From Blasia pusilla (Eukaryota): a stretch of 64,000 bases of DNA. The notes below the pieces were generated by a model. It was given only the letters and a program-made list of their open reading frames with translations, was not told the DNA's origin and made no database searches. The stretch's first letter is position 1, and every line of letters begins with the position of its first letter. Below, one piece after another: positions 1,500 to 32,500 of this stretch. Location: contig CM114271.1 of the NCBI GenBank assembly GCA_050084515.1, positions 22,878,001 through 22,942,000 on the forward strand, written 5' to 3'. A program made the translations under genes and the position numbers.

Positions 1500-3050
1500 A
1501 GTGATGCATAACATGAATGATGAAGCATATGGCTTGGCTACTCAATGTTTTTGGTCCAAAGGCTAAAGAAATGACGATACTACCATCACATATGTAGAAA
1601 ACTCTAATGTATGTGTTGACTCATTGACATTGGGTTCCACCAACTAATAAGCATGGTGATTCCAAACCAATCAATAGCCACCCTCTATCTAGGCATAAGA
1701 GGCAAGGTAACTTAACAAAGTGAATAACACTACTTTTGACAAACTCGCGTTGTTGACCAATATCAACGAGGTTCAATCATCCTATTTTTCTACTTGAAAC
1801 AAATTGTCATAGATAAAAGAACAAATCCAGCCAATCAACGACGCATGGTGGATCCGAATACATGAAGACCAAAGTGGAGGAAGAAATTCCTGGTCAAACC
1901 AGCTAATTACGAGTTTACAAGGCCTTCTCACACTTGTCAACGAATGGTTTGGCAACTCACCGGAAATTAGATTAGCCCATTTATGCGCGCGTTGCAAATT
2001 TAGACTCCACTCCCTCCGCAGAGCATTAACAACATGCGAAAATGTACATAAATAAGAGCCCCAACCCAAACCAGACCCGCCAAACCGTCGAAAGTTCGCA
2101 GGCAACGATTCGAAGGCGAGTGTGATGCCGACACCTTATGTGGCATTACACTTGTTAACCATAGATATGGATGATGTGCATGCAAACTGACGCTTGTTGC
2201 ATCCAATAACGCTGCTATTGACCTCATCCATGCTTGAACTTGTTGTGCAAATGAGTCATCCAACAAAGGAACCTTCTCCAAAATAGGGGGCTGATGCTCA
2301 TACAAATGTTTCAAAATCAGTCCCATTTCCTAGAACACCTAAACTTGGTTTACCAAACCATCCCCACGTCAAATATTTGATTGGCCTTGATATGACCAAC
2401 ATGCAATCATCAAATTAATGATGCCCATCCCGTCTACATCTTGCATCATAATAATAGGATGTCCATGGATAAAGAATCATGATATCCCTATTGTTATTTC
2501 CAATAAAGGATTTAAGAACTATAGCGTGCATTGAGACACATAGTGTAGTGAGACTTCTCTTGTGGTCTTATCCCTCTCTCTATATAAGTATTGATAAATA
2601 CAAAAAACTGTTGTAAGATGACAACCAATCTATGTAGGTTGATCCCTCCAAGAAATCCAACACTTTTGCACAATAGTAGAGAATTAGAGTTCTTTTGGTA
2701 AATGATCATCCATATGTCTGTTTTCCATGATAGAATGTGGTTTTGAGATTGATGAGTTATATTAATAACAACAACAATGTGTATGCGCACGATCCCATAA
2801 TAAATGTCTCTCCCTGTTCCATTATATATTTAATGGACACATTCTTTTGTAAATTTTGAGTATGAATTTTCAAACAGATTGGGGTGCCTCCAACAAGCCT
2901 AAGTGGATATTTTTTCTCCCAAGAAACTAAGTTATCCTGAAAAAAGAATTCAATGTGCAGCAATGAGTTAGAATATCTTCCATTACATTTAGTTGTCATC
3001 CTATAGCCTTCAAATTTCATGTCATGGGAGTATGTGACCCGCACATTTTT
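1500..3050 (-). pseudogene. Old, heavily decayed Gypsy pol remnant with a C5 DNA methyltransferase domain (copy 1)
   Basis: Minus-strand translations align by eye with the DNMT at 11.7-12.7 kb: GFLGGIN (motif I), IACWSYQGQS (decayed GWPCQG, motif IV), LEKVP (ENV), AQQVQAW..LLDATSVSLHAHHPYLWLT (VIII), LVWNHHAY*LVEPNVNE (IX). Unrelated ~340 bp interrupts it at ~1790-2130. Confidence 0.75.
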
Positions 3051-4329: not shown

Positions 4330-7300
4330 GCTATCACAAGGACTAACAACATCGATAACAAAATTTTGCAGGTTGGTAATAATCAACCAGCAATTAACAG
4401 AAGATCCAAATGGTTAATGTTAAGAAAATCTTGATTACAACAATGCAGAACACATGCACGAGCTGGATAGATACTCAAGTCTAAACTAGCATGCAAACCA
4501 GTGTGTTATCACTGGTCGATAGCTCACAACCTACTTTGTAAATGGCAAGATATTGGCAGCAAGTTCATACCCAGTATGTAGTGTTGTGGGTATTATGGTG
4601 TCGTGATTTACTGCACGCATTGTACCCTCATGTGCACTGTTAAATTGTCAATTTATCCTCCATATGCACTCTCTAATGGGTTCCTCATACCATATACAAT
4701 CCTCCAAGAAGGAGAATTCTATGCATGTGATCTCTATACCACCAACCAGCCTCGGAGTAGCTTAAATGTGTACATGACACCCGCTTATATACGAAGCATT
4801 TTATCGCCAAATCCTCTTCATTTCCAACTTCTCTCTATCCTGGAATCCAAAATTGGTATTGTTAGCAAATTCAATGGCTTTCACAAGGGGTTTTTCAACC
4901 CTAAATCATTGTTGGATTCTCCTCTTATTTCTTGGAATCTTGAATCAGCTTCAAGGGACAAATTTGAATCCATAATAGATAGCATAAGACCAGTGGTGGT
5001 TACTAACCTCGTTGTGAATGATCTTTATAAGGACTACAAGTGCTTGCTTGAATTACCTAATCCATCTTCTGGATTGGTCGTTCTTCTTGGTTCAGTGGTA
5101 ACATCTATACTCAAAGTTGCCCAGGAAAAGGGCCAAGTAACACATAGCATGTCATTTAACCAATACCAACCAGAGTTGAATATTTTACAGGTTATTACAT
5201 ATTGTCTCCCTACTAGAACTAAGAAATCCTTAGACATTTTTTACAACAGCTGTACATTTTTCAAGAAAGAAGCTAATAGTAGAGAACGCTTCCTAACAAA
5301 TTCCATGGGTGCATCTATTGATAAACGACTTAATATAGAAACCGGAATATTCCCATTTCTTTTCTCATATTTAAAATTTTACTTTCTTGTTACAAGCTCA
5401 TTCTCGGATTATATGCGACTGAGGGTCAAAACAAATATTCAGCCCATTTTCCTCATACAAATTGTACATTTTAGTCATGTTCTAGTTACGACAGTCAATA
5501 TCAGTACCACGTCTCGTTCCTTCATTCTCAATAAAGACCTAAGGAAGGAGAACTTTGTGAGGAGGACTTGTACCACCATTTGTCTAAACACTCACTCAGT
5601 CCACAGATACCTAGTAGCCCATGTTGGCATAGGAAACACTTAACAGACCTAAAAGCCATGGTCCATAAGTGGGGTATGCCAAACTTCTTTCTAACTCTCA
5701 CCATTGATGAGGTCTCCACCACACGATGGCCTGAGATAGCACACATAGAAAGCATCCTCCTAAAATTCAATCAAGAATTCACCTAGCGTGATGGGCCTTC
5801 CGAGTGCCCACAACTTTTTCATACACAACTACATACCTTCCTTGCTACCTATATATTCTCTGGACCTCAATTATTAGAATGTATTCTAAACTATGTCATT
5901 ATGTATGATCTTCAAGCTAGATAGAGGCAGCATACACTACCACGTAATTTTTTGGATGCACAATGATGACATCGATAGGATTACATCAAATATTTGTGCT
6001 TATATTCCAGATCCTAACAGTCTTGTGCCCAGCCATCCACAACAATCCTGTGACTCACTTCTCCGTAACCTTGTTACTACATAGCAATTACATAGGTGCA
6101 AAGGAGGAGTATGTATTATCAGGAAAAAGCAAGGCCAATGACCTTATTGTCATCTAGGATTCCCTGCATAAGTGAACATGGACACTATTCCCTCCATTGA
6201 TCCCAAGTCCATGCGTTGGACTTACTTTAGGCCATCGCATTTGCATCGCAATGTCATCCCCTATCATCCCCTTATCTTGTTATTGTGGGGTGTCCACATG
6301 AACATCCAGAGGGTCACCAACATTGACTGGCCCTCTTACCTTATCAAGTATGCATTGAAATCTAAACCAACAGGTTCCTTAGATATTGATACTGAGTCCG
6401 CTCGCTGCTTGGGACTTGAAAGCTTAGATAAGGTGAGACTTAAACTTGTTTCAAGAGTTGTATTCAATCAATCCATATGTTCCACTGAAGCATCATTATC
6501 ATCAATGCAGATAAAAATTATTTTCAGATCTCAATCTGTTAGATACATTGACTCTAGTCCACCATCACGTCGTACATCTCTTTACAAGCTTACATCTGTT
6601 CCTTGTATGCACCATGTAGAGCTCTATTGTGCTAGACCAACTTCCCTTGAAGCTCCTACTTTTTCTAAATCTTGGTCAAAAAATCATCTTACAAAACAAC
6701 ACCAAAATAATCCCTTGGTTTACTTGTAGGAATTGACTCCTTGGGTAACACAATCTATAAATCATACCGCCTAGTACGGTTTACTGAGTTCCATCCACTT
6801 CATCAATGGAATAAAATTTTCTATATAATTATGCTTCACCATATTCACTTTAGATCTGAAACCACACTCCTAAGCTCTACTTCATCTAAGTGGACTTATC
6901 TTCATGAGTGCTTGCACCGCAAATTAGTTTGATATAGAAAATCTCCTTACTAATCATGCCAACCAACACTTATGGAGCAAAATACATACTGCAGAGATTC
7001 TGTCAAAAACGTTAGAAATTCAAAAAAGCCCACTTAGAAATTGATTTGAGTAACATCGTCCATGAGGTTCAACCTGAGCCAACACCTACACAACCACACC
7101 AAACTCCTTTACATGATTCACCATATATAAGTCTACTCAATTCTGAGCAACAACGTCTCTTCTATACAATCACAACGATGCACTCAAAAATCCTCGTGCT
7201 CACAGGTTCATCAGGATCGGGAATTTTTTTTTTCTTAAACTATAGGTGCAAACATTGGGATTCTTTAGGTTCCGAGTATCTATTGGCGGCAACAATAGGA

Positions 7301-8090
7301 ATTGTAGCAATACGCGTACATGAGCAAGCTACAATAGTTCATTCTATATTATGTATTCCCATACGAGGGGAAGTACCTGATATGCATCCCACATCAGATG
7401 CTTCCACAAAACCTAGAGATGCTAACATCATTATCATTGACGAATGTTCCATGTTGACTCCACGTTTCTTACAAATTTTGTCTATGAGAATAAATCAAAC
7501 ATTAGAATCATATTCCCATAGTTCATTCGCAAATAAACTACTTGTATTAGTGGGTGACATGGCACAATGTCAATTATCCCTGTCCACATTACAACTGATG
7601 CTCCTTCGCTGCCAGAATTTAAAGACTGGCTTGAAGATGAGAACTTCCACCAACTGCCCTTTGTTGCTATTGGTTGTGTTGTGATGTTGACATCTAATAT
7701 AGATATTAGATTCCAAGTCGCAAATTTTGCTCACGCTGTATTACTAACTTTAACTACAATGATCATGACAACTCTTTGACCTCTATTTCAATCAAGATTA
7801 GGACATCAGGTAAGATATTAAAAATCACAAGGATAACCTTTTGTATTCTTAGATACAGCTCTAGTAAAAATTTCTACTAAAAAACTTTCCCTCTCACTCT
7901 TGGCTATGCTATGACAGGTCATAAGAGCCAATGATTGACAGTCCCTAGCAAATGTTTGCTAGTGATTAAATTTGTATTTGCACTCGGCTTGCTATATGTA
8001 ATGCTTTCTCATGCATGGTCTCGACATCAAATGAGAATATTAGGCACTTTAGACCAGTCTAATTTTATCACTTTTGGGCATATTGCTTAG
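4330..8090 (+). mobile_element. Helitron A: degenerate Rep/Helicase (divergent, Helitron2-like lineage)
   Basis: Rep motifs DLKAMVHKWGMPNFFLTLT, RGSIHYHVIFW (HUH), YLIKYALK. PIF1 motifs GSSGSG, IIIDECSML, LVGDMAQ, FPLTLGYAMTGHKSQ, LLYVMLS. Frameshifts and stops; internal helicase deletion near 7567 relative to Helitron B. Confidence 0.88.
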
Positions 8091-10601: not shown

Positions 10602-11739
10602 GCACTACTTCATCATGTAGTATCATTCCTGATGTTTAGTAATGCCGGACTTCTCCAATACATGTTGAATCTTGTTGATGTTAGCTGATGTTTTACCACC
10701 ACTATTACATGTCAAAATTTTCTTGCAACCGCCTATTGTTTGTACTACCACTGCTAAAGGTGGAAATTTTGTTACATGTTATTTTCCTACCAGTAGTGCA
10801 TGTGGAAATTTTGTTGCAACTACAAGTTGTTTTTACTCCCAGTGCAACAATGACTCTCCTTGAACGATAATCTATCTTTCTGTCATTTACATGCTCTGTG
10901 TTATGACATGTTTTTTGGTTGTCACTTTTCATGATCATGTACTATATTGTCATTGACTCTTATCTTCATTTACTACTTGCAGTTTGAATGCACACTACCA
11001 GTCCACAAATTTCAGTAACTATATATATATATATATCGTAATTCTGATATTTACATCAGCCACTATGTCAGATTTTAGCATCCTTGTATACTCTAAAGCT
11101 TAACACATTTTTTCCTACTTTAAGCTTCATACCGAACTTACTTGACAACATTTCTCCCAAAATTTTGAAACTCGTAATGTTCCACATAAAATATTATCAT
11201 TACACACATCGTCCAACAAATTCACTCAAAACAATAGACACTAATACTTGTAAAATGTTCAAAGCCAAACCTACAACTATTATTCATTGCCGCACTTCAC
11301 AGATCCCTGGACCCTTCAGCGTACACAAATCATGCATACTAAATGCAAAACAGCTCCTATAACTCCTAAGGAATTGGTGTATTTGGGGCCGCTCTCCTCT
11401 TGTCGACTTAGGGCCTATATCTAGCTCCCAAATCTCCATTGCGACTACCGTACGACTCTCCGGCATGAGTGTCGGTGGTTGCTATGGTGCAACCCCATCT
11501 CGGATAATAGAACTCTCATCTCCACGTGCAGTACCCGGAACCACACTCGATATTGTGGCTATCATCTCCTAGCGTACATGCAAAACATCCCAAGAAGTCC
11601 AAGGGTGTCTTTCCCGATCATCCATGGTGTGTCAATCTCCTCAGGTCTCGCCTCCAGCCGCTGCCTCAACCGCCTCGGTAGGCATGGGGCTCACCAACCC
11701 AACAGTTGTGATCAGTCGCGTCCTCAAACAACGCTGCTC

Positions 11740-12665
11740 AACTACTCCTAAGCTGAAAATCCATGTCAAGCAGTTCACGTCCATTTCTTGACCCAAGACA
11801 TGACGTCGTGATACCTCTGATAGTGACAGTATTGCCGTCACTCCTGTGGGGAATCCCATTGCTCGCTCTCGCTCATCGGCGTTGGGCTCCACCAACCTCT
11901 GTACTTGGTCATCCCAAACCAAGCCAGGTCCGGCCCTCTTGAATGCATAAGAAGCAGGAAAACTCACAAATGTGGGAAAGGCTGCTCGTGGCCTCCCAAT
12001 CCTGTTGACCATAGTCAACGGCGGTCGATCATCTAGCCTCACTACTTGTGATCGATGGCCTGGATCCAATATAAAATCCACCAACAAATTGGAGGGGCAT
12101 TCCACTCTTGCATATGCCCTTTGTAACACCTTGTGTGGTATCAAGTTGGTCCACCAAAGATGCGGGCGATGGGCTCGTGAACCCACACTCGCTACATCTA
12201 ACAACACTGCCGGGCCGATCCATGCGCGCACCTGATGTGCACTCGTCACCACGTGGGACCTCAAATCGCCCACAATTGGCACATTCTCCAAAATGTTGCA
12301 AGATCCGCATCATCTCCCAAAACAACCTGGACCGAGTGTCAACTTACCCGCTATCTCGTCCAACACTCGATTGGCCCTAACACGGCCAACCAACAATGAC
12401 CAAGTTTATGGTCCCTAACCGCTCCAAGTTTTGTGCCCCCAACAATGAAATGTCCCTCGGTAGGAAACTCTGGTAACCCTGAATGACATAGAAAAAGTCG
12501 AGGAAACGGAGTCGTAACAGCGCAACATGGTGACTTAAAGTGTGCCTCGCAACATCATCAATCTCCACATACAGGTATTCCTGCACGAGCACTCCAATGT
12601 GCAAAACTACAGCTAACTCAGTGTTGATCCCTCCAAAGAGATCCAACATCCGAATACCCTTCTTT
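11740..12665 (-). pseudogene. Retrotransposon-encoded C5 cytosine DNA methyltransferase domain, DNMT3-like (copy 2)
   Basis: Motifs in canonical order: LDLFGGI (I), YVEID (II), DI (III), VGWPC*G (IV; CAG>TAG stop), LFWE (V), ENV (VI), RAHRPHLWWTN (VIII), ERERAMGFPTGVT (IX), RRHVLGQEMD (X). Confidence 0.92.
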
Positions 12666-13049
12666 GGAATGCACCACACAATTGGGATGGTGTCCAAAGG
12701 GGTCATAGCAACACTCTTGCCTACTTGGGATTCCTCTAACTTGTCACACTCTAGTGCAAACGTCTGGCTCCATACGGTTTGCACATGCTCAACGGCTAAG
12801 CATCGAAGCTCCTCAATCGAGCCCCAAAGCGGCACCTCTCCTCCACTAACTGATGCGGCTACCATGACACTCCTCTGCATAGAAATGTCAGGAACAGGAA
12901 TATCCTCTTCATGGACATGTCCCTAAATCAAATCACTAGGCCAAGTGATGGCACTGCTAAATGCTGCTAAGGTTGCCATCTCTCTTGGCCATTGCTCGAT
13001 CACTGCATCTGTGAATCGAACGGGTAATGAGCTAAGGCGCTCATCACCT

Positions 13050-13420
13050 GACTGCCATCTTAGTTTGTAGGACATTGACTCCTCCCACTAATCCAGGGAA
13101 AACCCCATCGGGTATAACACTGTTTCACCAACCAAGACGTCGTAGGACTCTGCATCAATCACTATCGCCTTGGCTCGCACCACAGACTCATCTATAGGAT
13201 GTCCCCGGTGAATCCTCACCACGACCTCCTATCGGGTGATATATTGTGTGGTACTTGCTCCAATCCAAGATGTCTGTATTCGGAATGGACAACGCTCCAC
13301 ATCGGCTCTCGTCAAACCCAATCTTCTCAATGACGCTTTCCCCAACATCAGGGGTTGCGCTCTTGAATCCAACAAGACGCGATGCGGACTAAAAGCTCTA
13401 CCTCCGGGACTCACCAACTA
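13050..13420 (-). pseudogene. Retroviral-type aspartic protease of element A
   Basis: RVLLDSRAQPLMLG (decayed D-S-G) and downstream SYDVLVG motif. Confidence 0.75.
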
Positions 13421-14242
13421 GAAGACCTCTCCTCGGTTATCCTGCAACACAACACCAGGAGAAGCCACCGCATGCTCTATCGCGGATCTAGCGGGCATCT
13501 CCGCCATCTTAGTAGCCGCAGCCTGCCATGAATCTGACCTGGACGGCCCGAGCATCCGCTCCAAGGGCAGGTCCATCACCTCCTCTACAATCACCTTTGT
13601 CGTGCGCATACACATCGCTACACAACATACATCGTTGTCATTGAACACACACACACAAACACGCACGATCCCATGCTAACTCATGGCATCCAAACAACGA
13701 GACAAGAAGTACTAAAATATCTCCAATAAAGTAAGATCCAATCTCTCTACACCATCTCACACCATAGCTCTCAAAGATATGCACTCTCTCTCATGTCAAA
13801 CCAAACCCACTCTTCTAATGCGAGGCTTGGGTTACACTCACAAGGCAACGGACCATAGGTCCGCCGCCTCATGCCAAGAGATTCAACAAAGAGAGAATGA
13901 GCTCTCAAGCTCTTTCTCTTGGAGGTATACTCCCTTCCCTCTCCCAAGCTCACACAAACACAAGCAAGCACGGAACACACACACAAACACGCACAATCCC
14001 ATGCTAACTCATGGCATCCAAACAACGAGACAAGAAGTACTAAAATATCTCCAATCGCCCCCCTAGCTGGTGGTTAGGTCCCTCTAACTCCAGATAGCCC
14101 TTTATCCCTACCTACCACGATATACATCTCTAGGATGCTAAGAGCAGAAAGGTCGGGTGCTCATGTGGCCCAATCGTTAGTCGCCTTCCTGTCATCCATG
14201 TCATAAAAAAAGTCGGAATCAAAACCTACCTAGTATCTCCGC

Positions 14243-14390
14243 TATGTACATCTGGGACACATCCATCGTCCCCAAGGAACCCTAGTGAGAGGTGGCGTCA
14301 GACATGCCATATGTCAACCTCTCGAACATCCATCGTAGACTAGCATCGTGACCGCACTACGGGAAAAACCACACAACATACAACGCAAGC
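14243..14390 (-). pseudogene. PHD finger at the integrase C-terminus
   Basis: Translation RCMLCG..MLVYDGCSRG*HMACLTPPLTRVPWGRWMCPRC, a C4HC3 pattern with one C>Y change and one TGG>TGA stop. Confidence 0.85.
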
Positions 14391-14399
14391 CCGTAGGAA

Positions 14400-15690
14400 C
14401 TACAACTAAGCTCGGATCTAATGTACCATCAATGTTAGGAAGGTGACATGGTGCACAATTACGCACATGGTCCTTGCATACCATACCATCGCGTCCCTCC
14501 AGCAAGAGAACATCGAATGGCCAAATGTCACGCACTCTCAAGATAGTGCGCCCTGCAGTCACATCCAACGTCCTCGGTGCCGTCTATTGCAAGTAGACAT
14601 AATCTCCCAGATGAAACCTCTGGATAGTTGGTCGATAACCATCACCCCGAATAGTCGCATACCTCAACGTACCCTGATGTTGCGCAATCGCCAAGTTCTC
14701 GAACGCCATGCGCATCACTCTCTGAAACAACTCAGCCCTCTGAGAACATGCTCGCATCCATACATATGGGTCATCAAGGTCCAGCACCTCACCAGCATCT
14801 CGACGAATGGCCACATGTAAATTTGGTTCTTGGCCATAAAGTAGCAAGTACGGTGAAAAATACGCTAAGGATGTCTGTCTGCTGAATCTGTATCTCATCG
14901 CCAACCACAGCAACTAGAGGTACCAATCTCCTAGGTGACCTCTCTTCAAGCCATACTTGCGTAAACCCCTCTTCACCATCTGCACAACTCTCTCCGCTAA
15001 TCCATCCGCCTCGAGATGATCTCGCGAAGTCGTGTGGTGGTCGATCAATGCCTGATCACACAAGGCTTGGAACTCACCGCAAAACTCGGTACCCTGGTCT
15101 GTCAACACCTGAGCCGATGCGCCATAATGACTCAGCACTCTGTCAAGGAAGGCATAAGATACTCCCTCACTTGCTTTGTCAAGCAATGCAACCAACTCGA
15201 TCCACTTCGAGAAGTGCTCGACCATCACCAACACATAACGACTGTGATGCTCCATCAAAGGCAAAGGTCCTGCAAAATCCAAACTCCATCTATACCCTAA
15301 GCCCATGATCAATAATGGATGCAAATATGGAGTTGGAGCATTGAACGATGCTCGGACCCGATCACACACCATGCATCTGGAAACAAACTACTGAACGTCA
15401 GTCTACATGCCTCGCCACCAATACTAAATCTGGAGCAAGCTGTATGTCCGGTTCATCCCAAAGTGACCCAACTCCTAGTGGGCATGCTGCACTAATCGTG
15501 CTCTCTACAAAGGATGTGGCACTAGGCGTACTCTACCATCCTCCCAAACCCTCAAAATATATATCCCCTCCCAACGGAACCGTCTGGCCCGCTGTAGGAT
15601 CCGATCCCGCTCTCTAGCACCCACGGTGCTCTTAACGCTGCAAGTACGAAGGTACTCTAAGACTACTCCATCATTATGAATATCTCGCAC
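14400..15690 (-). pseudogene. Integrase (rve core) of element B
   Basis: RWSLDFAGPLP, VEHFSKWIELVAL, VLTDQGTEF, ADGLAERVVQMVK (D,D,E), FSPYLLLYG, FHLGDYVYLQ. Confidence 0.92.
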
Positions 15691-16499
15691 CTATCATCTC
15701 CTCACTCCCCTCGGGATCCAAGGACTCTACACTAGACCTCGCCATCGAAGTCTCCACACTCTCAAGCTCTCTCTCTTGGAGGTATACTCCCTTCCCTCTC
15801 CCAAGCTCTCTCCATGGTAACCTATTCTCCCAAGTCACCTCCTTGGCTCTTGACCTGATGTAGGAGGTCAAGGGCCGCTTACCAAAATTACAAAGTCGAT
15901 CATATATTCAAATGGTACTTACCTAAAATAGTAAGTTTCTCAATATGGCTCCAAATGAGCCAAAACAAAGGGTAAACCTGCTCTCTCAGGTTTCTCGGGG
16001 TCTTAGCAAGTCATCCTCAACCTAGTGAGTGTGTTCTCCACTATTCACAAAGGCGCTTTACTAGATCTCACCGATCTATCCTAAAAGACGTGACACCTTT
16101 GAACGTGATGCAGGAACTCCAACTCCACGCTCACATAGTGTAGCGGCCAGTCGAAAAGCCTCGGCGGGCGTACCTCCCAATGTCATAACATCGGAAGTAG
16201 AAAATAAAGGAGCGCGGTACACAATGGTGGCCGCCCCCAACAACGTGCTCGACACTGGCCCCTCTTGAGCATCAACAATAGGAGTTATCGCACTCGCTTC
16301 TTCCCTCGCCCTCTGTGCCTGCACACCAACAACATCACCAACTCTCCAAGAACTCTGATCAGGACCCATTGATGGGGTCCTCATCGCCTCGGAAAATATA
16401 AAAGATGGAGGAAGCCTAGTCTGTTTCCTAGATTCCCCTCGCTGTGGATCCAACTCTGCGGCAACTCCATACGTTACATTTATGGTGCCCTCAATCTGG

Positions 16500-17960
16500 G
16501 TAACCTCGCACATCCAACCATCATCCTCCATATCTCTGCTTGCTCCATATGATGTCTATGCCACGGCTATGGCATCGGGTAATCTCAATGCCATAGCAGC
16601 AATCTGCTTATGTAGCTGATGTATGTGAGCAGCCATCCTAGTCTCACGCCCGACATCTCCCTCGATGCGTTTAGATGATGGGACTGTACCTCCTCCATGG
16701 GCAGCTCCACCACCTTGTCGAGAAACTCCAGCTCCTCATCCCCCAACAGACCACCTGGTGCATGATCTCTAGCCCACCCAGATTGGCTACCCGCTCTGGT
16801 GCCCTCTATGGCCCTCGGTATGGACGTAACTCTAGATGTAAACAGAAATACCTAGCCTATGTATGACCATACCTCTGACAATAGTCAGACTGATAACCTC
16901 CTTGTGCAGTACCATCTCCTCCTCCATGCTGAGGCATACATCCATGACCCTAACGAGTGCAATCACGTTGATGATGGGCTCCACCACATGACCAACAAGT
17001 AATCGTAGGCGGCTACTGCTAAGCTGCATATAAAGGCGCAGGTCTCTGTGGAACGGCCTCCCGATATCCTCCCTGAGCTCGTGGTGCCACAGTCAACCTA
17101 TCTCGGAGTCCACGTTATTGCACACGTGGTGCAAACAATCATGACTACTCTCGCCTAGAACCCATGGTGGCTACGCTCTCCTCCGCCATGTTACGCTCAA
17201 TGTTCTCGGCAGTCCTAAAAACATCTCTCAACCTAGGGGAGGTGTTCATAAGAAGCACCACCTCCTGCACCTATGTCCGCAACATCCGGTCCAGCATCGC
17301 GTACCATGATTTGATAGCCTGAGCCTCTGTCACCCCCTGAGTGATGTTGATCAACCGGCACAAGCGAGTGTAAGCCTCACGCAAACTCTCACCCGGGCGC
17401 CTCTGGAAGTCGTGGATGCTCCGCAACTTCTCCGTGCGTACCCCCTGGTAGCTCGCCCTCAACTCAGCGCAGAACTCAACCACGGGGTTGAACTTGGGAC
17501 GAACGCGATTAGATAGTGCAATTGCTCCAATACGAGTGACCCCTCCTAAAACATCACTAGTGGAAGAGGAAGTAGCCTCTCCAGACTCCTCCTACCCATC
17601 TGGGAACGGCTCCGTCCATGACATATAGTGTGGGTCATAGTAGAGTCGCCATGCCTCAATCTCCTGGGCATATCTGTGGGAGAACTCATGGTAATCATCC
17701 ATGGGCGTCCCCTCTAAATGTTAGAATATACCGTTCCATGTTGTAAACGTTTTGAACTCTCTAGAGTTCCTAGCCCGTTGTGAGTCACACCAACTCTACA
17801 ATGAAGTCGTGTAGCTCTATGGTGCCTACAACACCTACAAACCACTCCTGGTAAACCCTCCACAGCTACTCTTAGGTCCACTACCTCGCCTCTCAAAATC
17901 CTGAAAGGATGCCGTGATGGCCCTCGTGCCCCTCTCATACGATCACTCTCAATCTCGCGA
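16500..17960 (-). pseudogene. gag of element A (retrotransposon gag domain + zinc knuckle)
   Basis: ORF 17271-17483 is gag-like; CWSCGGAHHQRDC (CX2CX4HX4C) at ~16958-16999. Confidence 0.8.
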
Positions 17961-19379
17961 GTAATCCCTCAATCACTCAAACTAAACATGCGGCACTCAA
18001 TCTACACTCTCTCACTGAGACGTGTGTTGTGCGGCAACAAGAAGCATGGTGTGGAAAATCAACTGATCTATCCTCTCATCGATAAACCATCCTCAACTCT
18101 TGACATCCCACACAGGTCTATGTCCCCTAAATCCATACATCATGGATGCTCCTAGCATGAGCACGAAACCCAATATCCCAAATAACTTCCCAATACCCAA
18201 AGATTCCTCTCACGTGCAGGGTAAGAGACGAGAATGGGTAACTTGACAATAATGTCAATGTCACTCCTCGACAACTGCAAATCTCGACCCCGACTCAATC
18301 GTGAAGACAACACCTCCAATCAGCAAGTCGTATTCCTCATGTACTGATGCTACTCAAACCTCCTCGATGTGCGGTGGAGGTCCAACCGTCCGGTGCGGCA
18401 TTGGCCGCATGGAACGGCTACAAACGGCACGGCACTCGAGAATGGGGTGCGGCACTTGGCAGCATACCCTCCTCGATCAAAAATTCACACGCTCTGCTCC
18501 GTAGGGAAGGAGCGGCTCCGCGATCGAGACGGTGTGGTGCGGCCACGAGTGGCACGGCACAACCATCGGTGGCGTTGTGGATACGGGTGTCACGGCACGG
18601 TACTCGATCATCGTCAAGCGGCTACCAATCACAACATAGAAACATGAAATGAAAACTCAAACACCATAACCCGAGGTCACCTACCATCACTGGTTGATGA
18701 CGAAACTTCGATGACGGTGGCGGCAAAACCAAAGAACGTGGTGGCGGCATAAGTTAGAGAATCAACGGTGGTCGTGGAAGACCCTCCACTCCGTAATGGG
18801 CGGCAATGGCAACCAAGGACGACAACCGACGAACGCGGCTCTAAGCAGCGCTAGGCAACGGCGACGGCCGATGGTGGATAGTGGACGGTGGACCGTTGAC
18901 GGTGATGGTTGACCATTGATGGTGACGTCCGACCAATGATGGTGATAATTGACCGTTTACGATGACGATGACGGCGACGGCGGCGGCCGTCGCCGGCGTG
19001 GTGGCTTCTTTAGGGTTTGAACAATTTAACCCTAAAAATTGCCTAGCAATGGCAGTTTTGCAATATTGACCATAATGTTTTAATTGCAACTCCAAATTGC
19101 ACAACGTGCACAACTTCATGATGTACAAGGCCATCAAACAATATTTTGAATCGAACTTTCCAATAAAAACTGAAGGGGACTGTTGTAAGGCCAAATGTCT
19201 CTTTCTCCTACACAAAATTTGGCAGCGCTTCCGCGCACCACTCTTCCACACTAAAAATTGGCAAAGGAAACATCACAAGTAAGCGGCTCTTGCTGTGGTG
19301 AGCACTCCCATGAATTTCTGAACAGGGAATATGATCCCCAACCTGAAAAACCAGCGAGTGACTAGCGAGCTCCCCCATG

Positions 19380-19902
19380 AAACTCTCTCACTCACTCATT
19401 CTCTCTCACAACACCATAGTTCCCACATGTGTGCACTCTCACATGTTTCTTTCAATGTCAAACCAAATCCACTCTCCTAATGAGAGGCTTGGGTTACACA
19501 AACAAGGCAAGCAAGACCATAGCTCCGCCGCCTCATGCCAAGAGGTTCAACAAAGAGAGAATGAGCTCTCAAGCTCTCTCTCTTTGAGGTATACCCCTCC
19601 CCTCTCCCAAGCTCTCTCCATGGTAACCTATGCTTCAAAGTCACCTCCTTTGCTCTTGACGTGATGTAGGAGGTCAAGGGCCACTTACCAGAAATATAAA
19701 GCTGATCATATAGTCAAAATGATACTTACCTAAAATAGTTAGTTCCTCAATATGGCTCCAAATGAGCCGAAACGAGAGGGAAATCTGCTCTCTCAAGTTT
19801 CCGAGGGCCCCAGCAGGTCATCCTCAACCTACTGAGTCTGTACTCCACTTCTCAAGAAGGCACTCTACTAGATCTCACCGATCTATCCTAAAAGACATAA
19901 CA
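19380..19902 (-). repeat. 5' LTR (partial) of element A
   Basis: Clearly similar to 15757-16095 and 13760-13950; ends ..AAGACATAACA on +. Confidence 0.8.
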
Positions 19903-20149
19903 CTATGGATTTAAGTGATTTTTGCAAATTGCTACTTGCGGAGGCACAAAAGAAAGGCGAGCCCATCCTGCGGAAATAATAACACACCAAACGAACATAC
20001 ACAACATTTCGATCATTGAAGTATCTACAACGTAATTTCACTCCATTCAAGATCATTCAACATGTCAATACTTGGGCACTTCATCATACACTAATTTCAT
20101 TCACTCTACTTTTACAATTCCAATTATTTTTGCAAACTTGCTATTCCAT

Positions 20150-23100
20150 TGAATCTTATAGATATGCGTGATTTTTGGAAGGTTCTCTTTGGCCAAGCGC
20201 AAAAACGGGCCGTTCATTTGAGAGAATGGAAATTCTCAAACTAAAGAAGAGGACTTACCATCAAGGATATGAAAAGAATAATGAAAGTCCTTCTAGTTCA
20301 ACTATCTCTACTTTGGGGGCCCAACCCAGTTCAACTATTCTAAATATTGAGATTTCAACTATACAAAGTCCATTCACGAGGTTAGATTTGGATGCCTTAC
20401 ATGTCGCGGCCCTCATAACCAAACGAACACCAAATAGGTGCCCAAAAAAACATCAGAACTCCAGTGGACTCATGCTACGATGATCGCGCTTTGGAGAGGC
20501 ACAATCATCATAACGTGAGATGAAAGGCACCAATCTAAGACAAAACGCAAAACAAAGTTTTTTGTTTCATGCATTGGTGGTTGCGACCAAAAAACCTAGA
20601 CCAAACGAAAACCAAGACCTGAGATGAGTTGAGTCTTAGAAGGTTAGTTACCAAAGAGGTGAGAACGAGTTTTGGCACACGACAAGCGTTCGGGGAATTG
20701 GACTGTGTTTCTAACCATAACGTTTAGCTCCAAGATGCATTTGGGACAAACAAGATCGCATTGAAAATATTATCTCAAGACGCTTCCAACGCACCAAAGA
20801 TCTCAGCAAACGCATAACTACTAGCTGAGACGTTTTTTTGAAAACTACTATGAGAGCAATCGAGTTAAGGGCCAATCTGAGGGGCCCGATTTTCTTTTCC
20901 GAAAGTTAGGGAGACCCCGGAGATCCCTATAAGCACTGGTAAGGGGGAGTCTCTCCAATATATCTTGGAACACAAATCCCACTTTGAGCACCAAACGGTG
21001 TCTCAAGGGCATGGGATGGACCCAGAGTTTGGCGTTGGAACTTGAAACCCAAACCTAAGCCAAGAGAGTGGATTTCATAAGCCACACTTGGATTCCGACC
21101 CGTGATTCATTTTGTGTGAGTCTAGGTTAGGGACTCATTGGATGTCCATCAGACAGTTGGAACCGCCAGGCACGAGAGGTCGTTTGATGTTCGTGGATCG
21201 ACCAGAAAGTCTGTCCCAAGTCTTTCAAGACTTGCTTGTGTTGTAAACTGTGAAACTAGGAAGGTTGAGCTTGATGGGAGGCCGAGTCAAGAACTCGGCA
21301 AGTTAGAACAGCTGATTGATCCAGACCCGACTAACATCAGTGTGTGTTTGGATGTAGATCAACGTTGAGAGCGTGACCTACTGAACGCACGCTTCCGCAA
21401 CAACAAAGATTAACGTTCAAGGAGAGTGGGAGCACATCATTACATCTGCTTTCTTTTTATACATGTCCTTTCCTAACTCTTCAATATTCATTTCTTGTTT
21501 TGGTCTCTTTTTTCTCATCTATTTATATTCTTTTAGATCCTTGAACAATCATGGAGTGATGAAAGCTGAAAATCATGGAGTTGGTCTTGGAGCTAGACAA
21601 GATGAATTTATTCAATGTGATGTCATAGTTCAAGTGTTACATGCTTTTACTAAATTTTTTCCAAGAATCCAATTACCAAACATTTCACTCCATAAAGTTA
21701 TTGAGAACGCTCCTCTGGCCAACTACTTATGTAATACCAAGAGTTGTGGTATGTGCGATTTCCCCTATTATGAACAAACTATACGTACATCATCATAAAG
21801 TTGTCAACAATGGTTCGACTCTTCGCAATATTAGGGATGAAGTAACACTTAGAGCAGATCCCATGCCTTTTGTATCTCATGGAGTTATGTTATCAACAAG
21901 AAGGGACACTATACCAATTGCAAATACTTCTACAAGTTGTCTTGAGTCTAAAGTTGATAAAGTTGTGAGAGTATATTCATTTCTTAATCTTGCAAGGAGA
22001 CCAAAATTCCAAGAAAGTGATATTAGGAAGTCACGGTTCTGAAGGAATTTCCATCATACGAGTGGTTGTCATATGCTAGGTCTTATGATAGAAATACGCC
22101 CCTCATATCATGCTTTACATTGGACTATGAGGTGGTGAGAGGTACAAAGTATCATGGCTCCCCATATGGTATGTATTGTGCCTATAGGAAACTAAATTTC
22201 CCCCTCTTGAAGTCGAATCCTCTATTCTTCAAATCGTTGATTTCTAGTGTTGGTCCTAGAAGCCTTTATTTTCTTACTCATGCTCAGGCATACAATTCCG
22301 CACTTCAAGTCGCATCAATTGGAGTGTATGTAAACAAGCAACTTGATGGCATTGGACACTTTAGGGTTCAAGGTAGGATCTATCATTCTATTAGAGCCTA
22401 ACATCGTGGTATAGGGGGTCATTTTTCTCAACTCTACATTCATGATATTGCAAATAAATTGGAGAATTGTGAAAGGGTTAATGTTATGATCTTAATTTGG
22501 ACATCTTGAGAGGGCTACAAGAGATGTTACTCGAATGTGATCCATATGTGAAGATCTTTTTCAAATAGCATCTAAAGCAAGTGACCCTAATATGTGGGTC
22601 ATCTTGAAGGCAAGTAAGAGAGGCCTCAATGCAAAGTTTTATTAGTTGCCAACTGCTCTAAAGTAGCATTGTACTAAGTGATGGTAGTGAACAAATTGAT
22701 CACCGTGATATAATCATACGACTATGTATAAGGAGGAAGAGTAAGGCGTATATCAGACCTAAGAAAATCATATATTCCATAATATTTGGTTATATTATTT
22801 GTCTTTAGTGAAGCACATTGGAATCTTGGAATACCAACCGCAAGGCTTGAAGACTCAATAACACCCCAACATGCAATAATTATTCATCATGGGGAGGCGA
22901 GAGATATTGGATTTTCATATGATTTCATGCATGAGGATAGAGTTGAGGATGATAATATTGAGGAGACAAGGACAAAAAGTCTTACAACCTTGCAATTTGC
23001 ATGTTTTCAACTTCCAACGCGTATTGGCGGCGAGGATGAAAATTGACTAGAATAGTTTGGTCAACTTATTCAACATTATATGGTTGATCTTAATGCTATT

Positions 23101-29500: not shown

Positions 29501-32500
29501 AGACTGAAATCCTATTCGGGGGTGTTTACTTTCTCTCCCTCAAGTTGAGTTTTCCATACTTACAGGCACCTTATCATTTTATGATGACACCATAACATTG
29601 CCAAAAGCAAACTCAATACCTCAAATTTTCTCTGGGGAATATCACACTACCCCAATTATTGTGGTATAAATGTTGAGAAATCAATGTCCACACGATCAAC
29701 TATTTTGCATGACCAAAAAGCTCAAGTCATATCCTACATGGCAGGCAGATCAGACACTTTATGTCAGTAAACTGCATTTAACAAGAATAATCTAAAACTT
29801 CACTGATTACGAATCTAGAGTAGAATTGCTTTGGATAAAAAACTTCAGTGCAAACCACACTATTACGATTGGGCTTTTTCCAGCCATTATCTTCTAAGAT
29901 AAAAAGAGATATGTGCAAAGACAATAAAACATATGCAATGTGGTGGTTATTGTGGCACTTTTCTTTATGTAATCCACGATCTAGGATATCTATAGTCCAA
30001 TCTACAATATACCCACCTTATGCATTATGTAGTGGATTCCTAAAAGAATATATCATACCATATCCACATCACTTCCATATTTGTGATTACTATAGCTCAA
30101 AACAGCCCTGCATTGATCTTAATGTTTAGATGACACCTGCATATATCAGAAAGATCCTTAGTGTTAATCCCCTCGAGCTTCAACTTATGTCTATTGTAGA
30201 CTCTAGGATAGGAATTGAGTCAAAATATAATGGGTTCCACAAAGGATTCTTATGTGTACCCTCCCTATTGGATTATCCCTTCATTTAATTCAACTAGAGT
30301 GGTTCAAAATCTGAACTTCAATCACCTATCCTAGATTCCATCAAGCAAATATTTTCAATAAATCTTTCAATAAATAAGCTCTACATGGATTACGAGGCCT
30401 TGATAGAATTACCCCAACCATCAATCTGGCTTAGTCATTCTCCCATCAACAACAGTCGAAAGAGTACTCAAATAATCTAAGGAAAAAGGCCAGATTATAC
30501 ATAGCATGAGCTACGACCCATACCATCATGAGTTAAATATTTTGCAAGATGTAGCTTACTCACTTCCTTTTCAGAAACGTTCTTCAATTGATATCTTGGA
30601 CAATGGTAGCCTTTATTTACATCAAAAATCATTTGCAAGAGAAAATCTTCTCACAGATATTTCTGGTACCTCTTTGGACTCTCACCTCACGATAGAGACA
30701 AGTTTATCTCCTTTTTATTTCCATACTGTGAGGATATTTGTCAGGTAAACTCCTCATTTGTAGATTATATGCAGAGTCGCTCAAAGCAATTATTTAGCAT
30801 ATTTTCTCCTTATAAGTCTTACTCTCTTCTGATGCATCAATTGAGAAATCGATAGCCATATGTTCAAGTAGTAGAACTTTCATTCTTACTCGAGAATTAT
30901 GTAAGCTAAGAAGAGAAAGACTACATCTTCTAGAGGAAGATTTATATTATTATTTATCTAAATATTCAATAAGCCCACAACTTCTTGGAAGTCTTGTTTG
31001 ACATCGTCACCATCTTCAGGACTTGAAGGCAATGGTACATAAGTGAGGTTTGCCTCATTTTTTATTGACTTTCATGTTTGATAAAGTTTCACCAACTAGA
31101 TGGCCTGAATTCAATGATATTGAAGTCCTCTTAAAAGTTTTCAACCCTATATTTTCTTGGCGTGATGGTCTGGCTAAATGTGCGCAATTGTTCCATTCAA
31201 GATTACATTCTAGCCTGCAACAATTCATCCTAGGTAGACTCCATGTACTTGGTAAAGTTGTTAACTATTTACTAAGGTATGAGTTACAAGGAAGAGGTAG
31301 CCTTCGTTGTCACATGGTACTCTAGATAGACACGACCACTTTAGACAGAGTTACGTTAGAGAGCTGCCCATACATTCCCTCTAATGTAAATACTTCTAAA
31401 TATCTTATCTACGTCATCAGAAAGTACTTCCTTTGCTCATGACACGTTGCTACAATACGTAGTGACAAAAAAATTACATAAGTGTAGGCAAGGTGTATGT
31501 CTTATTAATAAAAGGAATCATAAACCTTACTGTAGGCTAGGCTTCCTTGCCCCACCAAACCTTAATCCAATACCTTATGTTGAGCCTAAAACCATGAGGT
31601 GGACTTACTTCCGTCCTTCCCTAAAACATCGTAATGTCATACCATACCACCCACTTTTGTTACTCCTATGGGGAGCTCACATGAACATACATCGTGTCAC
31701 CAGTATTGATTGGTCATTCTATTTTCTAAAGTATGCATTAAAATCAGAGCCAACATGGTCACTAGATATTGATACACAAGCTGCTAAGTGTTTGGGTCTT
31801 GGTGGCATTGATGAAATAAAGTTGAAGTTAATTTGTGGTGTATTACTAAATAAGTTTGTATCATCCATAATAGTTTTACTAACATCCACGTAGATCCCCA
31901 TTATATACCATTCTCAAGAAGTGCATTACGTTGACTCTAACCCTCCATGTCAGCGCAATTCCCTCTACGGAAATGCTTCAGTTCCTTGCATCCACCCAAT
32001 CGTGATGTACTCAAACAAACCCATACGTCTGGGAAAAATTACTTTCATTTAGTATTGGTCTCTTTATGAATTACACAAATCCTACACTAAAAGCACCAAT
32101 GTTGTTCTTGGCCTAGAAAATTTAGGTAATGTTGTTTGTAAGACAAATAGAGTCGTTCGCTTCACTGAGTTTCATCTTCTCCACCAATGGAGATAGTTCT
32201 TTTATTCAATTTTATTGTATCACGTCCACTTCAGGTCTGACGCTGAACTTCTATCTTCTTCCCATGACAATTGGACCTACTTACATGAATATATGCATAG
32301 AAAGATTATAGTCAGCATTGAAGATGTATATACATTAGTTAAAACTCAGGCCATAAAAATCTCTGGGATCAAGTGCATGTAGCTTACATTCTTGCTAAAG
32401 TAACTAATGTGTTACAACCTGAACTGAATAAAGATATATATTGCTGAATTTTTGAATCAAGCATCTTCAAAAACTCTTTGTTATCATAGCCAGAATGTAT

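What the first reader, a model, noticed from the sequence alone, without database searches (positions are those of the whole stretch)
11302..19902. Gypsy retrotransposon carrying a DNMT3-like cytosine methyltransferase inside pol
Seen: a near-complete C5-MTase motif set (I-VI, VIII-X) lies on the element strand between the aspartic protease and the pre-RT segment, with no introns. Motifs VIII (AHRPHLWWTN) and IX-X (ERAMGFP..T..RRHVLG) look DNMT3-type. Known: DNMT-bearing retrotransposons were described in dinoflagellates and the charophyte Klebsormidium (de Mendoza et al. 2018); they are not a standard part of land-plant Gypsy lineages. Inference: in this land-plant-like host the element could methylate its own cDNA or insertion site, or tamper with host silencing. 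This copy is dead (stop after PC, frameshift).
Basis: partly seen in the sequence, partly recalled or inferred. Interest (0 to 1): 0.92.

Follow-up and report, generated by a model that had tools for sequence, protein, structure and literature searches.

The report
Dead DNMT3-carrying Gypsy retrotransposon, bryophyte host
This is a broken, rearranged copy of a jumping gene whose family really does carry its own DNA cytosine methyltransferase, a kind described before in a green alga and here seen to be common in liverworts and peat mosses too.

Summary
On the minus strand, between a retropepsin-like protease and the first residues of reverse transcriptase, lies a colinear set of C5-methyltransferase motifs (I, II, IV, VI, VIII, IX, X). 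It has no introns. It is broken by a TAG in place of the Gln of PCQ, a second stop ten codons on, and a frameshift with a small deletion before ENV.

Pfam does not recognise the window's own pieces. Their relatives are Ty3/gypsy polyproteins that score above Pfam's threshold for PF00145. A profile of the family hits the DNMT3A catalytic domain at E 2e-25.

In 15 of 17 long related loci the order is gag-PR-DNMT-RT-RH-IN-PHD on one strand, so the DNMT belongs to the family.

The window copy is dead. It has at least 8 stops, its protease DSG is now DSR, and it has no RT/RNase H and no 3' LTR. The IN-PHD stretch is not its own: it belongs to a 2.5-kb nested fragment with its own target-site duplication.

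The host is a bryophyte, probably a liverwort. Named relatives come from Marchantia, Calypogeia, Sphagnum, Closterium, Klebsormidium and, with the other domain order, Scenedesmus.

Verdict: a new member of a known kind (KnitGypsy-Dnmt3, de Mendoza 2018). The useful addition is that the lineage reaches into land plants. Interest is moderate.

The parts
19411..19903 (-). 5' LTR of the outer element E1. It starts TGTTATG at 19903; its 3' limit is not fixed.
   Evidence: It is 87% identical over 339 nt to 15759-16096 and 84% over 205 nt to 13759-13951. Read depth is 75-216x inside it and 0 beyond 19903.
16079..17841 (-). gag region of E1 and the linker toward PR, degenerate
   Evidence: It is colinear with Marchantia P0165 residues 14-570. 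The Pfam Retrotrans_gag match is weak (E 0.0027, below threshold).
13598..16095 (-). E2: a nested 2498-bp fragment of a second copy of the same family. It has TGTCAC...GACA ends and is flanked by a repeated AAGG (or CAAAGG).
   Evidence: 34 DNA reads join 13591 to 16094, with 8 letters fitting on either side; this is the empty site in sister copies. Termini and duplication were read.
15759..16095 (-). E2: the first about 338 nt of an LTR
   Evidence: It is 87% identical to 19566-19903. 175 reads leave the window sequence at 15762 for another consensus, which marks a private deletion break.
14248..15684 (-). E2: integrase (zinc finger and rve core) and a C-terminal PHD finger, degenerate. A stop sits in the PHD at G*H.
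   Evidence: Pfam rve matches at E 3.3e-12. tblastn matches P0184 residues 1130-1608 at 41% identity, E 1e-103, and P0179 at 72%.
13598..13951 (-). E2: the 3' part of an LTR. It includes one copy of an 81-nt repeat (13647-13727) whose twin lies at 13975-14055.
   Evidence: Repeats and sequence were read. About 1450 loose read ends at 13596-13600 mark a repeat terminus.
12755..13603 (-). Aspartic protease region of E1. The active-site DSG reads DSR (13375-13355), and the region holds stops.
   Evidence: tblastn with the gag-PR ORF of L029 matches residues 666-948 at 39%, E 1e-54. The alignment to P0183 and P0158 is, the motif position.
12290..12703 (-). DNMT N-terminal half (motifs I, II, IV and the motif-V region), with TAG at 12379-12377 and TAA at 12346-12344
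   Evidence: Alignments are. hmmsearch against the A2 profile gives 122.7 bits. The best PDB hits are DNMT3A/3B.
11641..12294 (-). DNMT C-terminal half (motifs VI, VIII, IX, X and the variable region between VIII and IX), in the other frame
   Evidence: hmmsearch against A2 gives 320.5 bits. There are 812 library hits. 8 reads from other copies carry extra letters at 12291-12296, exactly at the frameshift.
11302..11475 (-). First about 58 residues of the RT region; E1 ends abruptly at about 11302
   Evidence: tblastn with the RT ORF of L029 matches residues 2-59 at 55%; P0160 and P0168 also match. Read depth falls to about 1x below 11306.

Best explanation
The window holds a dead, 3'-truncated copy (E1) of a Ty3/gypsy LTR retrotransposon. 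Its family encodes a DNMT3-like C5 cytosine methyltransferase as an integral domain of the polyprotein. The family order is gag(CCHC)-PR-DNMT-RT-RNaseH-IN-PHD.

E1 keeps its 5' LTR, gag, PR, DNMT and the first residues of RT. It has lost RT, RNase H, IN and the 3' LTR. Between gag and PR it is interrupted by a 2.5-kb internally deleted fragment (E2) of a second copy, and E2 supplies the IN-PHD seen in the span.

The host is a bryophyte, most likely a liverwort, and the family is multicopy in its genome.

How the family most likely works is inferred, not shown. The DNMT is translated in frame with PR and RT. It is then either released by the protease or stays attached to RT, and it methylates the element's own cDNA or new insertion de novo. 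The PHD finger on the integrase reads histone tails to steer integration, as the chromodomain does in chromoviruses.

This copy can do none of that. Its catalytic loop is cut by a stop, its frame is shifted, and its protease active site is mutated.
For: Shown here:
- Motifs are colinear and in frame with PR and pre-RT.
- A search with the C-terminal piece finds 812 library proteins at E<=1e-3, 428 at E<=1e-10 and 32 at E<=1e-30.
- Of 33 relatives scanned with Pfam, 21 carry PF00145 above its threshold. Those long enough also carry RVT_1, RT_RNaseH, Integrase_H2C2, rve and PHD.
- P0034 is a single 2188-aa ORF reading CCHC-PR-DNMT-RT-RH-IN.
- L029 has gag-PR, DNMT and RT-RH-IN in one frame, separated by two in-frame stops.
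- Of the 17 related loci of 7 kb or more, 15 have DNMT followed by RT-RH-IN on the same strand and 14 have gag-PR upstream. One is cut by its contig end inside the DNMT, and one has the other order.
- A family profile hits DNMT3A at 1.9e-25 and DNMT3B/3C at 1e-23 to 1e-19. DRM scores 1e-12, M.HhaI 2e-7 and DNMT2 4e-5, and nothing named DNMT1 is among the hits.
- dN/dS of the DNMT among copies has a median of 0.55 over 328 pairs, and 0.21 for the 30 pairs with dS>1. RT gives 0.36 over 65 pairs.
- Reads show the empty site of E2, and depths of 5-16x over the DNMT and 75-340x over LTR parts, against 0-1.3x in the flanks.
- The neighbouring four-domain cation channel gene is closest to Marchantia (56-58%) and Riccia.
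- Named DNMT relatives are 11 Marchantia, 2 Calypogeia, 3 Sphagnum and 1 Klebsormidium among 33 hits, plus Closterium and Scenedesmus.
Against: - Pfam itself does not recognise the window's two DNMT pieces (0 of 2, even at E<=10). Their direct PDB matches are weak (E 0.06-1.4). The assignment therefore rests on relatives.
- Most related copies are also decayed. Only 3 of 27 DNMT stretches and 4 of 16 RT stretches are free of stops. The dN/dS pairs are not independent and include neutral decay after insertion.
- No host DNMT3 or DRM sequences could be brought in. 'DNMT3-like' rests on the ranking of solved structures and on the published tree for Klebsormidium.
- Catalytic activity of the Klebsormidium element's DNMT was inconclusive in yeast (PMC5890265, passages read).
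- RNA reads barely cover the DNMT: 0-0.8x in most bins, and up to 2.8x in the bin that holds a 40-nt island belonging to another transcript.
- How E2 came to its present layout is not resolved.
Confidence: 0.9

Rival explanations
1. A host DNMT3 gene or pseudogene, or a retrocopy of one, lies next to or was captured once by this particular element copy. On this reading it is not a family feature.
For: The span is rearranged and nested, so chance juxtaposition had to be considered. Bryophytes do have host DNMT3 genes, such as MpDNMT3b (bioRxiv 10.1101/2021.02.12.428880, passages read).
Against: The same PR-DNMT-RT order is found in 15 of 17 long related loci, in a single 2188-aa ORF and in several named species. 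The DNMT shares its frame with PR on one side and RT on the other. It has no introns and no flanking duplication of its own.
Confidence: 0.03
2. The domain is a non-catalytic methyltransferase-fold module, used for binding DNA, SAM or chromatin rather than for methylation.
For: An earlier finding, e1-2850094, describes a dead C5-MTase fold between RNase H and integrase in a diatom gypsy Pol. Yeast assays of the KnitGypsy-Dnmt3 DNMT were inconclusive (PMC5890265). My simple pattern for motif IV (PC followed by Q, N, Y or E) matches only 68 of 114 domain sequences.
Against: In the bryophyte clade the catalytic signatures are kept. The intact relatives P0158, P0165, L029 and L010 all have LFGGI, PCQ, ENV, RxRxWWTN and ERERAMGF (P0158 also). 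ENV is present in 104 of 114 domain sequences and motif VIII in 102 of 114. Some of the motif-IV misses are GWECQ variants that keep the Cys, or gene models with gaps. dN/dS is below 1.
Confidence: 0.12
3. The odd order in the window (gag, then IN-PHD, then PR-DNMT) is a genome assembly error rather than a real nested insertion.
For: The family is highly repeated, with LTR parts at 75-340x. There are unusual 50-nt and 81-nt duplications at the joints.
Against: E2 has proper TG..CA termini and a short flanking duplication. Reads from other copies give the matching empty site at 13591/16094 (34 reads). The internal break at 15762 shows as a sharp point where 175 reads diverge. All of this is expected for a real insertion. 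The short reads were sampled at about 1 in 100 and come mostly from other copies, so they do not prove the junctions of this very locus.
Confidence: 0.07

Closest known systems
KnitGypsy-Dnmt3 of Klebsormidium nitens (de Mendoza et al. 2018, PMC5890265; abstract and passages read)
   Same: Both are LTR Ty3/gypsy elements with a non-rearranged, intronless Dnmt3-type domain inside the Pol polyprotein. The K. nitens protein KFL_000540020 (P0187) is a sequence homologue (35% identity, E 1e-17). Its DNMT is likewise followed directly by the pre-RT stretch.
   Different: The host is a land plant (a bryophyte), not a charophyte alga. The bryophyte copies form their own clade, with K. nitens on a separate deep branch. 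The paper's legend describes a DIRS-like repeat layout, whereas relatives here (L010, L042) show ordinary LTR pairs. The C-terminal PHD on the integrase is not mentioned in that paper's main text ('PHD' occurs 0 times).
Animal DNMT3A/3B catalytic domain and plant DNMT3/DRM
   Same: The motif order I-X and the key residues match (PC, ENV, RxR). DNMT3A is the best solved match (E 1.9e-25) and DRM comes next.
   Different: There is no PWWP or ADD N-terminal part. The stretch between motifs VIII and IX is longer. Motif X reads GQAMDLNCL rather than the DNMT3A form. The domain is part of a retrotransposon polyprotein.
SymbioDIRS-Dnmt3 of Symbiodinium (same paper)
   Same: A Dnmt3-type domain sits in the Pol ORF of a retrotransposon. 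For that family, de novo CG methylation was shown in yeast.
   Different: Those are DIRS elements with a tyrosine recombinase, not a DDE integrase, and the host lineage is unrelated.
Green-algal RT-RH-DNMT-IN-PHD gypsy elements (for example 'pol' of Scenedesmus sp. PABB004, P0089) and the DAM/DNMT 'EpiLTR' elements of bioRxiv 10.64898/2026.05.21.726589 (passages read)
   Same: The DNMT domain is homologous (36-44% identity to the window piece) and the integrase carries the same PHD.
   Different: The DNMT sits between RNase H and integrase. On the DNMT tree the two orders lie on opposite sides of one branch (SH-aLRT 98). The preprint's EpiLTR DNMT is said to be sister to DNMT4, and is therefore a different capture.
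Chromoviruses (Ty3/gypsy with a chromodomain at the integrase C-terminus)
   Same: A histone-reader module is fused to the C-terminus of the integrase.
   Different: Its role in targeting is an inference.

Membership tests
Ty3/gypsy LTR retrotransposon | Domain order PR-RT-RNaseH-IN, with the integrase after RT | tested here: met
   This is met in relatives (P0034, P0032, L029 and 15 of 17 long loci). In the window itself RT and RNase H are missing.
Ty3/gypsy LTR retrotransposon | Long terminal repeats with TG..CA ends and a 4-6 bp target-site duplication | tested here: met
   E2 starts TGTCAC, ends GACA and is flanked by AAGG/CAAAGG; the empty site is seen in reads. E1 has only its 5' LTR. 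Relatives L010 (94.5%) and L042 (88%) have LTR pairs.
C5 cytosine methyltransferase (Pfam PF00145) | Score above Pfam's gathering threshold | tested here: not met
   Neither window piece matches at any E up to 10. The feature is met by 21 of 33 relatives scanned and by the DNMT ORFs of L029, L010 and L048.
C5 cytosine methyltransferase (Pfam PF00145) | Motifs I (FxGxG-like), IV (PC), VI (ENV), VIII (RxR), IX and X in linear order | tested here: met
   All are present in order in the window, but cut by two stops and a frameshift. They are intact in P0158, P0165, L029 and L010.
DNMT3 family | Closer to DNMT3 than to DNMT1, DNMT2, DRM or bacterial enzymes | tested here: met
   The family profile against solved structures gives DNMT3A 1.9e-25, DRM 1e-12, HhaI 2e-7 and DNMT2 4e-5, and nothing named DNMT1 is among the hits. 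This is a ranking, not a tree.
DNMT3 family | Branches within the eukaryotic DNMT3 clade in a phylogeny that includes host DNMT3 and DRM | not tested
   No host DNMT3 or DRM sequences could be obtained. This was published only for the K. nitens copies (PMC5890265).
KnitGypsy-Dnmt3-type elements | An intronless Dnmt3 domain inside the Pol ORF of a gypsy element | tested here: met
   Homology to K. nitens P0187 is shown.
KnitGypsy-Dnmt3-type elements | DIRS-like repeat layout (A-coding-B-A-B), as stated in the paper's figure legend | tested here: inconclusive
   Ordinary LTR pairs are seen in L010 and L042. Reads of the host, however, show very frequent junctions of an LTR end to an LTR start. 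This is unresolved.
Catalytically active DNA methyltransferase | SAM-dependent methylation of DNA | not testable with these tools
   This copy is broken. For intact relatives only motif conservation and dN/dS are available.

The most novel reading that the evidence does not exclude
The DNMT3-plus-PHD gypsy lineage is not a Klebsormidium peculiarity. It is an ancient family of the whole green lineage, with the order RT-RH-DNMT-IN-PHD in chlorophytes and PR-DNMT-RT in streptophytes, and it came on land with the bryophytes. It still has catalytically competent, recently transposing copies in liverworts such as Marchantia polymorpha, where DNMT domains of separate loci are up to 97.7% identical. 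If so, an element-encoded de novo methyltransferase acts in a genetically tractable land plant, and what such enzymes do for the element (self-methylation of cDNA, stealth, or manipulation of host silencing) becomes directly testable.
Probability: 0.3. Interest if true: 0.72.

Novelty: new member of a known kind. Interest (0 to 1): 0.45.

Why it matters
Retrotransposons that carry their own cytosine methyltransferase turn the usual host-silences-transposon picture on its head. So far they have been described in dinoflagellates and one charophyte alga.

[quoted passage not shown] The 2018 paper treats the Klebsormidium case as an acquisition in that lineage.

The relatives found here put the same lineage in liverworts and peat mosses, a zygnematophyte and, in permuted form, a chlorophyte. 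Marchantia copies are near-identical to one another. That points to an older origin and offers a model plant in which the function could be tested.

The window's own copy adds nothing functional. It is a decayed, nested relic.

Tried and rejected
- Pfam on the window's own ORFs gave no PF00145 match. Single-sequence PDB searches gave only weak DNMT3 hits. Both were replaced by searches through relatives.
- No whole genome is held for this window, so no census of copies or full-length members in the host itself was possible.
- The protein atlas returned only unnamed clusters and one phage-rich PF00145 cluster, which was not informative.
- The look-up of sequencing runs listed no RNA holder. When RNA runs were laid, coverage of the DNMT was 0-0.8x in most bins and up to 2.8x in the bin with a 40-nt island that continues into unrelated sequence. 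I draw no conclusion on expression of intact copies.
- The first alignment (A1) was too diverse for the locus scan. A tighter one (A2) worked.
- CpG observed/expected in the element is 0.72, higher than the window's 0.54. There is no special sign of CpG depletion, so I dropped that line.
- I could not explain E2's layout (a single template-switch event against two deletions), nor decide whether the frequent LTR-end-to-LTR-start junctions mean split repeats, tandem LTR arrays or circles.
- A tree against host DNMT3/DRM was not possible for lack of those sequences.
- Literature searches, followed by passages read in nine papers, found no description of DNMT-bearing gypsy elements in bryophytes.
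- Earlier notes of this scan held nothing on this genome or on this sequence.

Full report
**1. What is in the sequence.**

The span is GC-richer (about 50%) than its surroundings (38-42%). All its coding remnants lie on the minus strand. Reading that strand from 19903 down, the parts are as follows.

- An LTR begins with TGTTATG at 19903.
- A gag region runs 17841-16079. It is colinear with residues 14-570 of the Marchantia protein P0165.
- A 2.5-kb block runs 16095-13598.
- A protease region runs 13603-12755.
- The methyltransferase runs 12703-11641.
- The first 58 or so residues of the reverse transcriptase region run 11475-11302.

Homology stops at 11302, and read depth falls there to about 1x. 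No RT or RNase H is found anywhere in the 64 kb.

**2. The methyltransferase.**

Their coordinates are in the observation check.

- The N-terminal half shares its frame with the protease. The C-terminal half shares its frame with the pre-RT stretch.
- Three lesions separate the two halves. A TAG at 12379-12377 stands where relatives have the Gln of PCQ. A TAA stands at 12346-12344. A frameshift with about nine residues missing lies just before ILENVP.
- Eight DNA reads from other copies carry extra letters exactly at 12291-12296. The frameshift is therefore private to this copy or to a subset of copies.
- In all I count 8 stops between 13648 and 11302.
- The protease active site reads DSR where relatives read DSG.

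Pfam does not recognise either DNMT piece (0 of 2, even at E up to 10). Single-sequence searches of solved structures give only weak hits. They are consistent, though. For the C-terminal piece, 12 of 12 hits are DNMT3A (E 0.21-1.4). For the N-terminal piece, 29 of 31 hits are DNMT3A, 3B or 3C (E 0.057-0.23), and the other two are UTP13.

**3. Relatives settle the identity.**

An exhaustive HMMER search with the C-terminal piece finds 812 proteins at E<=1e-3, 428 at E<=1e-10 and 32 at E<=1e-30.

- I scanned 33 relatives with Pfam. Of these, 21 carry PF00145 above its threshold.
- The 12 that do not are C-terminal fragments, gene models with gaps, or just under the line.
- The long ones are Ty3/gypsy polyproteins.
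- P0034 is a single 2188-aa ORF with zf-CCHC, aspartic protease, DNA_methylase, RVT_1, RNase H and integrase.
- The Marchantia protein P0168 reads DNMT-RT-RNaseH.
- P0178, P0180 and Closterium P0056 read PR-DNMT.

A profile of 18 family members matches the DNMT3A catalytic domain at E 1.9e-25 and DNMT3B/3C at 1e-23 to 1e-19. It matches plant DRM at about 1e-12, M.HhaI at 2e-7 and DNMT2 at 4e-5. Nothing named DNMT1 is among the hits at E<=0.01. Against a profile of six intact relatives, the window's pieces score 320.5, 122.7 and 12.6 bits.

**4. Is the DNMT part of the family or a one-off?**

A scan of metagenome contigs with alignment A2 gave 49 loci. I mapped the 17 loci of 7 kb or more.

- In 15 of them the DNMT is followed on the same strand by RT-RNaseH-IN, usually through to the PHD.
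- In 14 of them gag-PR lies upstream.
- One locus is cut by its contig end inside the DNMT.
- One locus (L048) has the other order, RT-RH-DNMT-IN-PHD.

L029 has gag-PR (957 aa), DNMT (438 aa) and RT-RH-IN (766 aa, running off the contig) in one frame, separated only by two in-frame stops. L010 has an LTR pair at 94.5% identity around the full order.

So the DNMT has no insertion signature of its own and is a family feature.

Most of these copies are decayed. Only 3 of 27 single-piece DNMT stretches and 4 of 16 RT stretches are free of stops. Pairwise dN/dS for the DNMT has a median of 0.55 (328 pairs; 2 pairs above 1). For the 30 pairs with dS>1 the median is 0.21. RT gives 0.36 (65 pairs). 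The pairs are not independent and include neutral decay after insertion. This shows past purifying selection that looks weaker than on RT, and no more than that.

**5. The rearrangement.**

The IN-PHD stretch (15684-14248; rve at E 3.3e-12; 41% identity to P0184) sits between gag and PR. That is not the family order. It belongs to a block, E2, spanning 16095-13598.

- E2 begins TGTCAC, ends GACA, and is flanked by a repeated AAGG (or CAAAGG).
- Thirty-four DNA reads join 13591 directly to 16094, with 8 letters fitting on either side. This is the empty site in sister copies.
- E2 is therefore a nested insertion of a second copy.
- Its content, in order, is the first about 338 nt of an LTR, a private break at 15762 where 175 reads continue with another consensus, IN-PHD, an 81-nt repeat, and LTR positions from about 290 to the end with a second copy of that repeat.
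- The two LTR parts overlap by 50 nt at 98% identity.

I could not decide how this layout arose.

The reads also show that an LTR end is very often followed at once by an LTR start, with 1-4 variable letters between. This may bear on the DIRS-like repeat layout that the 2018 paper's figure legend gives for the Klebsormidium element. It remains unexplained.

**6. Copy number and expression in the host.**

The DNA run was sampled at about 1 in 100. Flanks have 0-1.3x depth, the DNMT region 5-16x and the LTR parts 75-340x. Most reads are 95-99% alike rather than 99% or more. The family is therefore multicopy, with many LTRs.

RNA reads cover the LTR parts at 7-27x, mostly with the first mate on the + strand. 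The DNMT region gets 0-0.8x in most bins. It reaches 2.8x only in the bin that holds a 40-nt island whose flanks belong to another transcript.

**7. Host and distribution.**

A four-domain cation channel gene in the window (61197-62252) is closest to Marchantia (56-58%). Riccia, Diphasiastrum and Ceratodon follow. The host is therefore a bryophyte, probably a liverwort.

Among the 33 longer proteins at E<=1e-10, the named ones are 11 from Marchantia polymorpha, 2 from Calypogeia fissa, 3 from Sphagnum species, 1 from Klebsormidium nitens and 1 mislabelled MAG. The other 15 are unnamed. Further look-ups name Closterium (CCHC-PR-DNMT) and Scenedesmus (RT-RH-DNMT-IN-PHD).

Of 114 proteins with a near-complete DNMT domain:

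- 53 have RT upstream, or the integrase next;
- 36 have PR upstream or RT downstream;
- 25 could not be placed.

I dropped 7 redundant cluster members and built a tree of 107 rows. On it the two orders lie on opposite sides of one branch (SH-aLRT 98). The Marchantia, Calypogeia and Sphagnum copies form a clade (99). Klebsormidium and Closterium sit on deeper branches. The tree is unrooted, uses the quick method and has no host DNMT3 outgroup.

Marchantia DNMT domains from different loci are up to 97.7% identical.

**8. Comparison with what is known.**

De Mendoza et al. 2018 (PMC5890265; abstract and passages) described KnitGypsy-Dnmt3 in K. nitens. It is an intronless, non-rearranged Dnmt3 in the Pol ORF of an LTR Gypsy, with Ka/Ks below 0.2 and an inconclusive activity test. 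They called it an acquisition in that lineage.

Later texts speak of 'streptophytes (Gypsy-DNMT3)' (PMC12344493 and bioRxiv 10.64898/2026.05.21.726589; passages). A 2019 opinion piece says such transposons are absent from land plants 'such as tracheophytes' (PMC6338049).

Seven searches, and the passages I read afterwards, gave no description of bryophyte copies. Supplements were closed and may hold some.

This finding is thus a member of a known kind in a new host group. The copy in hand is a relic.

**9. Mechanism.**

Shown: the domain order, the shared frames, the conserved catalytic motifs in intact relatives and the past purifying selection.

Inferred: the DNMT is made as part of the polyprotein and methylates the element's cDNA or new insertion. 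The PHD finger on the integrase guides integration by reading histone tails.

Neither step was testable here, and neither applies to this broken copy.

Noticed in passing
window 1569-2617 (-): A second, older DNMT-like fragment of the same kind. It is 29-38% identical to residues about 48-316 of the family's DNMT domain and has no neighbouring PR or RT hits.
   Followed up: partly
window 13596-13600 and 16093-16095: In the host's DNA reads an LTR 3' end is very often joined straight to an LTR 5' start, with 1-4 variable letters between. About 105 junction reads are listed by their letters, and about 1450 loose ends finish in the LTR-start motif. This could mean tandem LTRs, circle-type junctions or a split-repeat layout. 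It is unexplained.
   Followed up: partly
window 7016-7684 (+) and 32490-33392 (+): Two ORFs with PIF1-like helicase domains (E 1e-11 and 1e-19). They are probably Helitron remnants.
   Followed up: no
window 59944-62252 (-): Long exons of a four-domain voltage-gated cation channel (Ion_trans E 1e-37). It is closest to Marchantia (56-58%) and matches animal CaV channels at 26-29%. I used it only to place the host.
   Followed up: partly
L029 3192-3194 and 4509-4511: In this nearly intact relative the DNMT ORF is bracketed by single in-frame stops on both sides, between PR and DNMT and between DNMT and RT. This may be decay or programmed read-through. Marchantia gene models also end shortly after the DNMT.
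   Followed up: no
related proteins P0032, P0035, P0045, P0089, P0184, P0188, L048: A large sister group (53 of 114 domain-complete proteins) has the DNMT between RNase H and integrase and keeps the C-terminal PHD. The one named host is the chlorophyte Scenedesmus. One member is filed in a bacterial MAG (Minisyncoccia), presumably by mis-binning.
   Followed up: partly
L003 6157-7132, L042 6476-7282, L039 11051-11834: Related loci also carry insertions of family-like repeats inside their own coding regions, so nesting of this family into itself seems common.
   Followed up: no
window 20402-20500 and 41603-41700: A 99-nt inverted match at 85% identity just outside the element, probably another dispersed repeat.
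   Followed up: no
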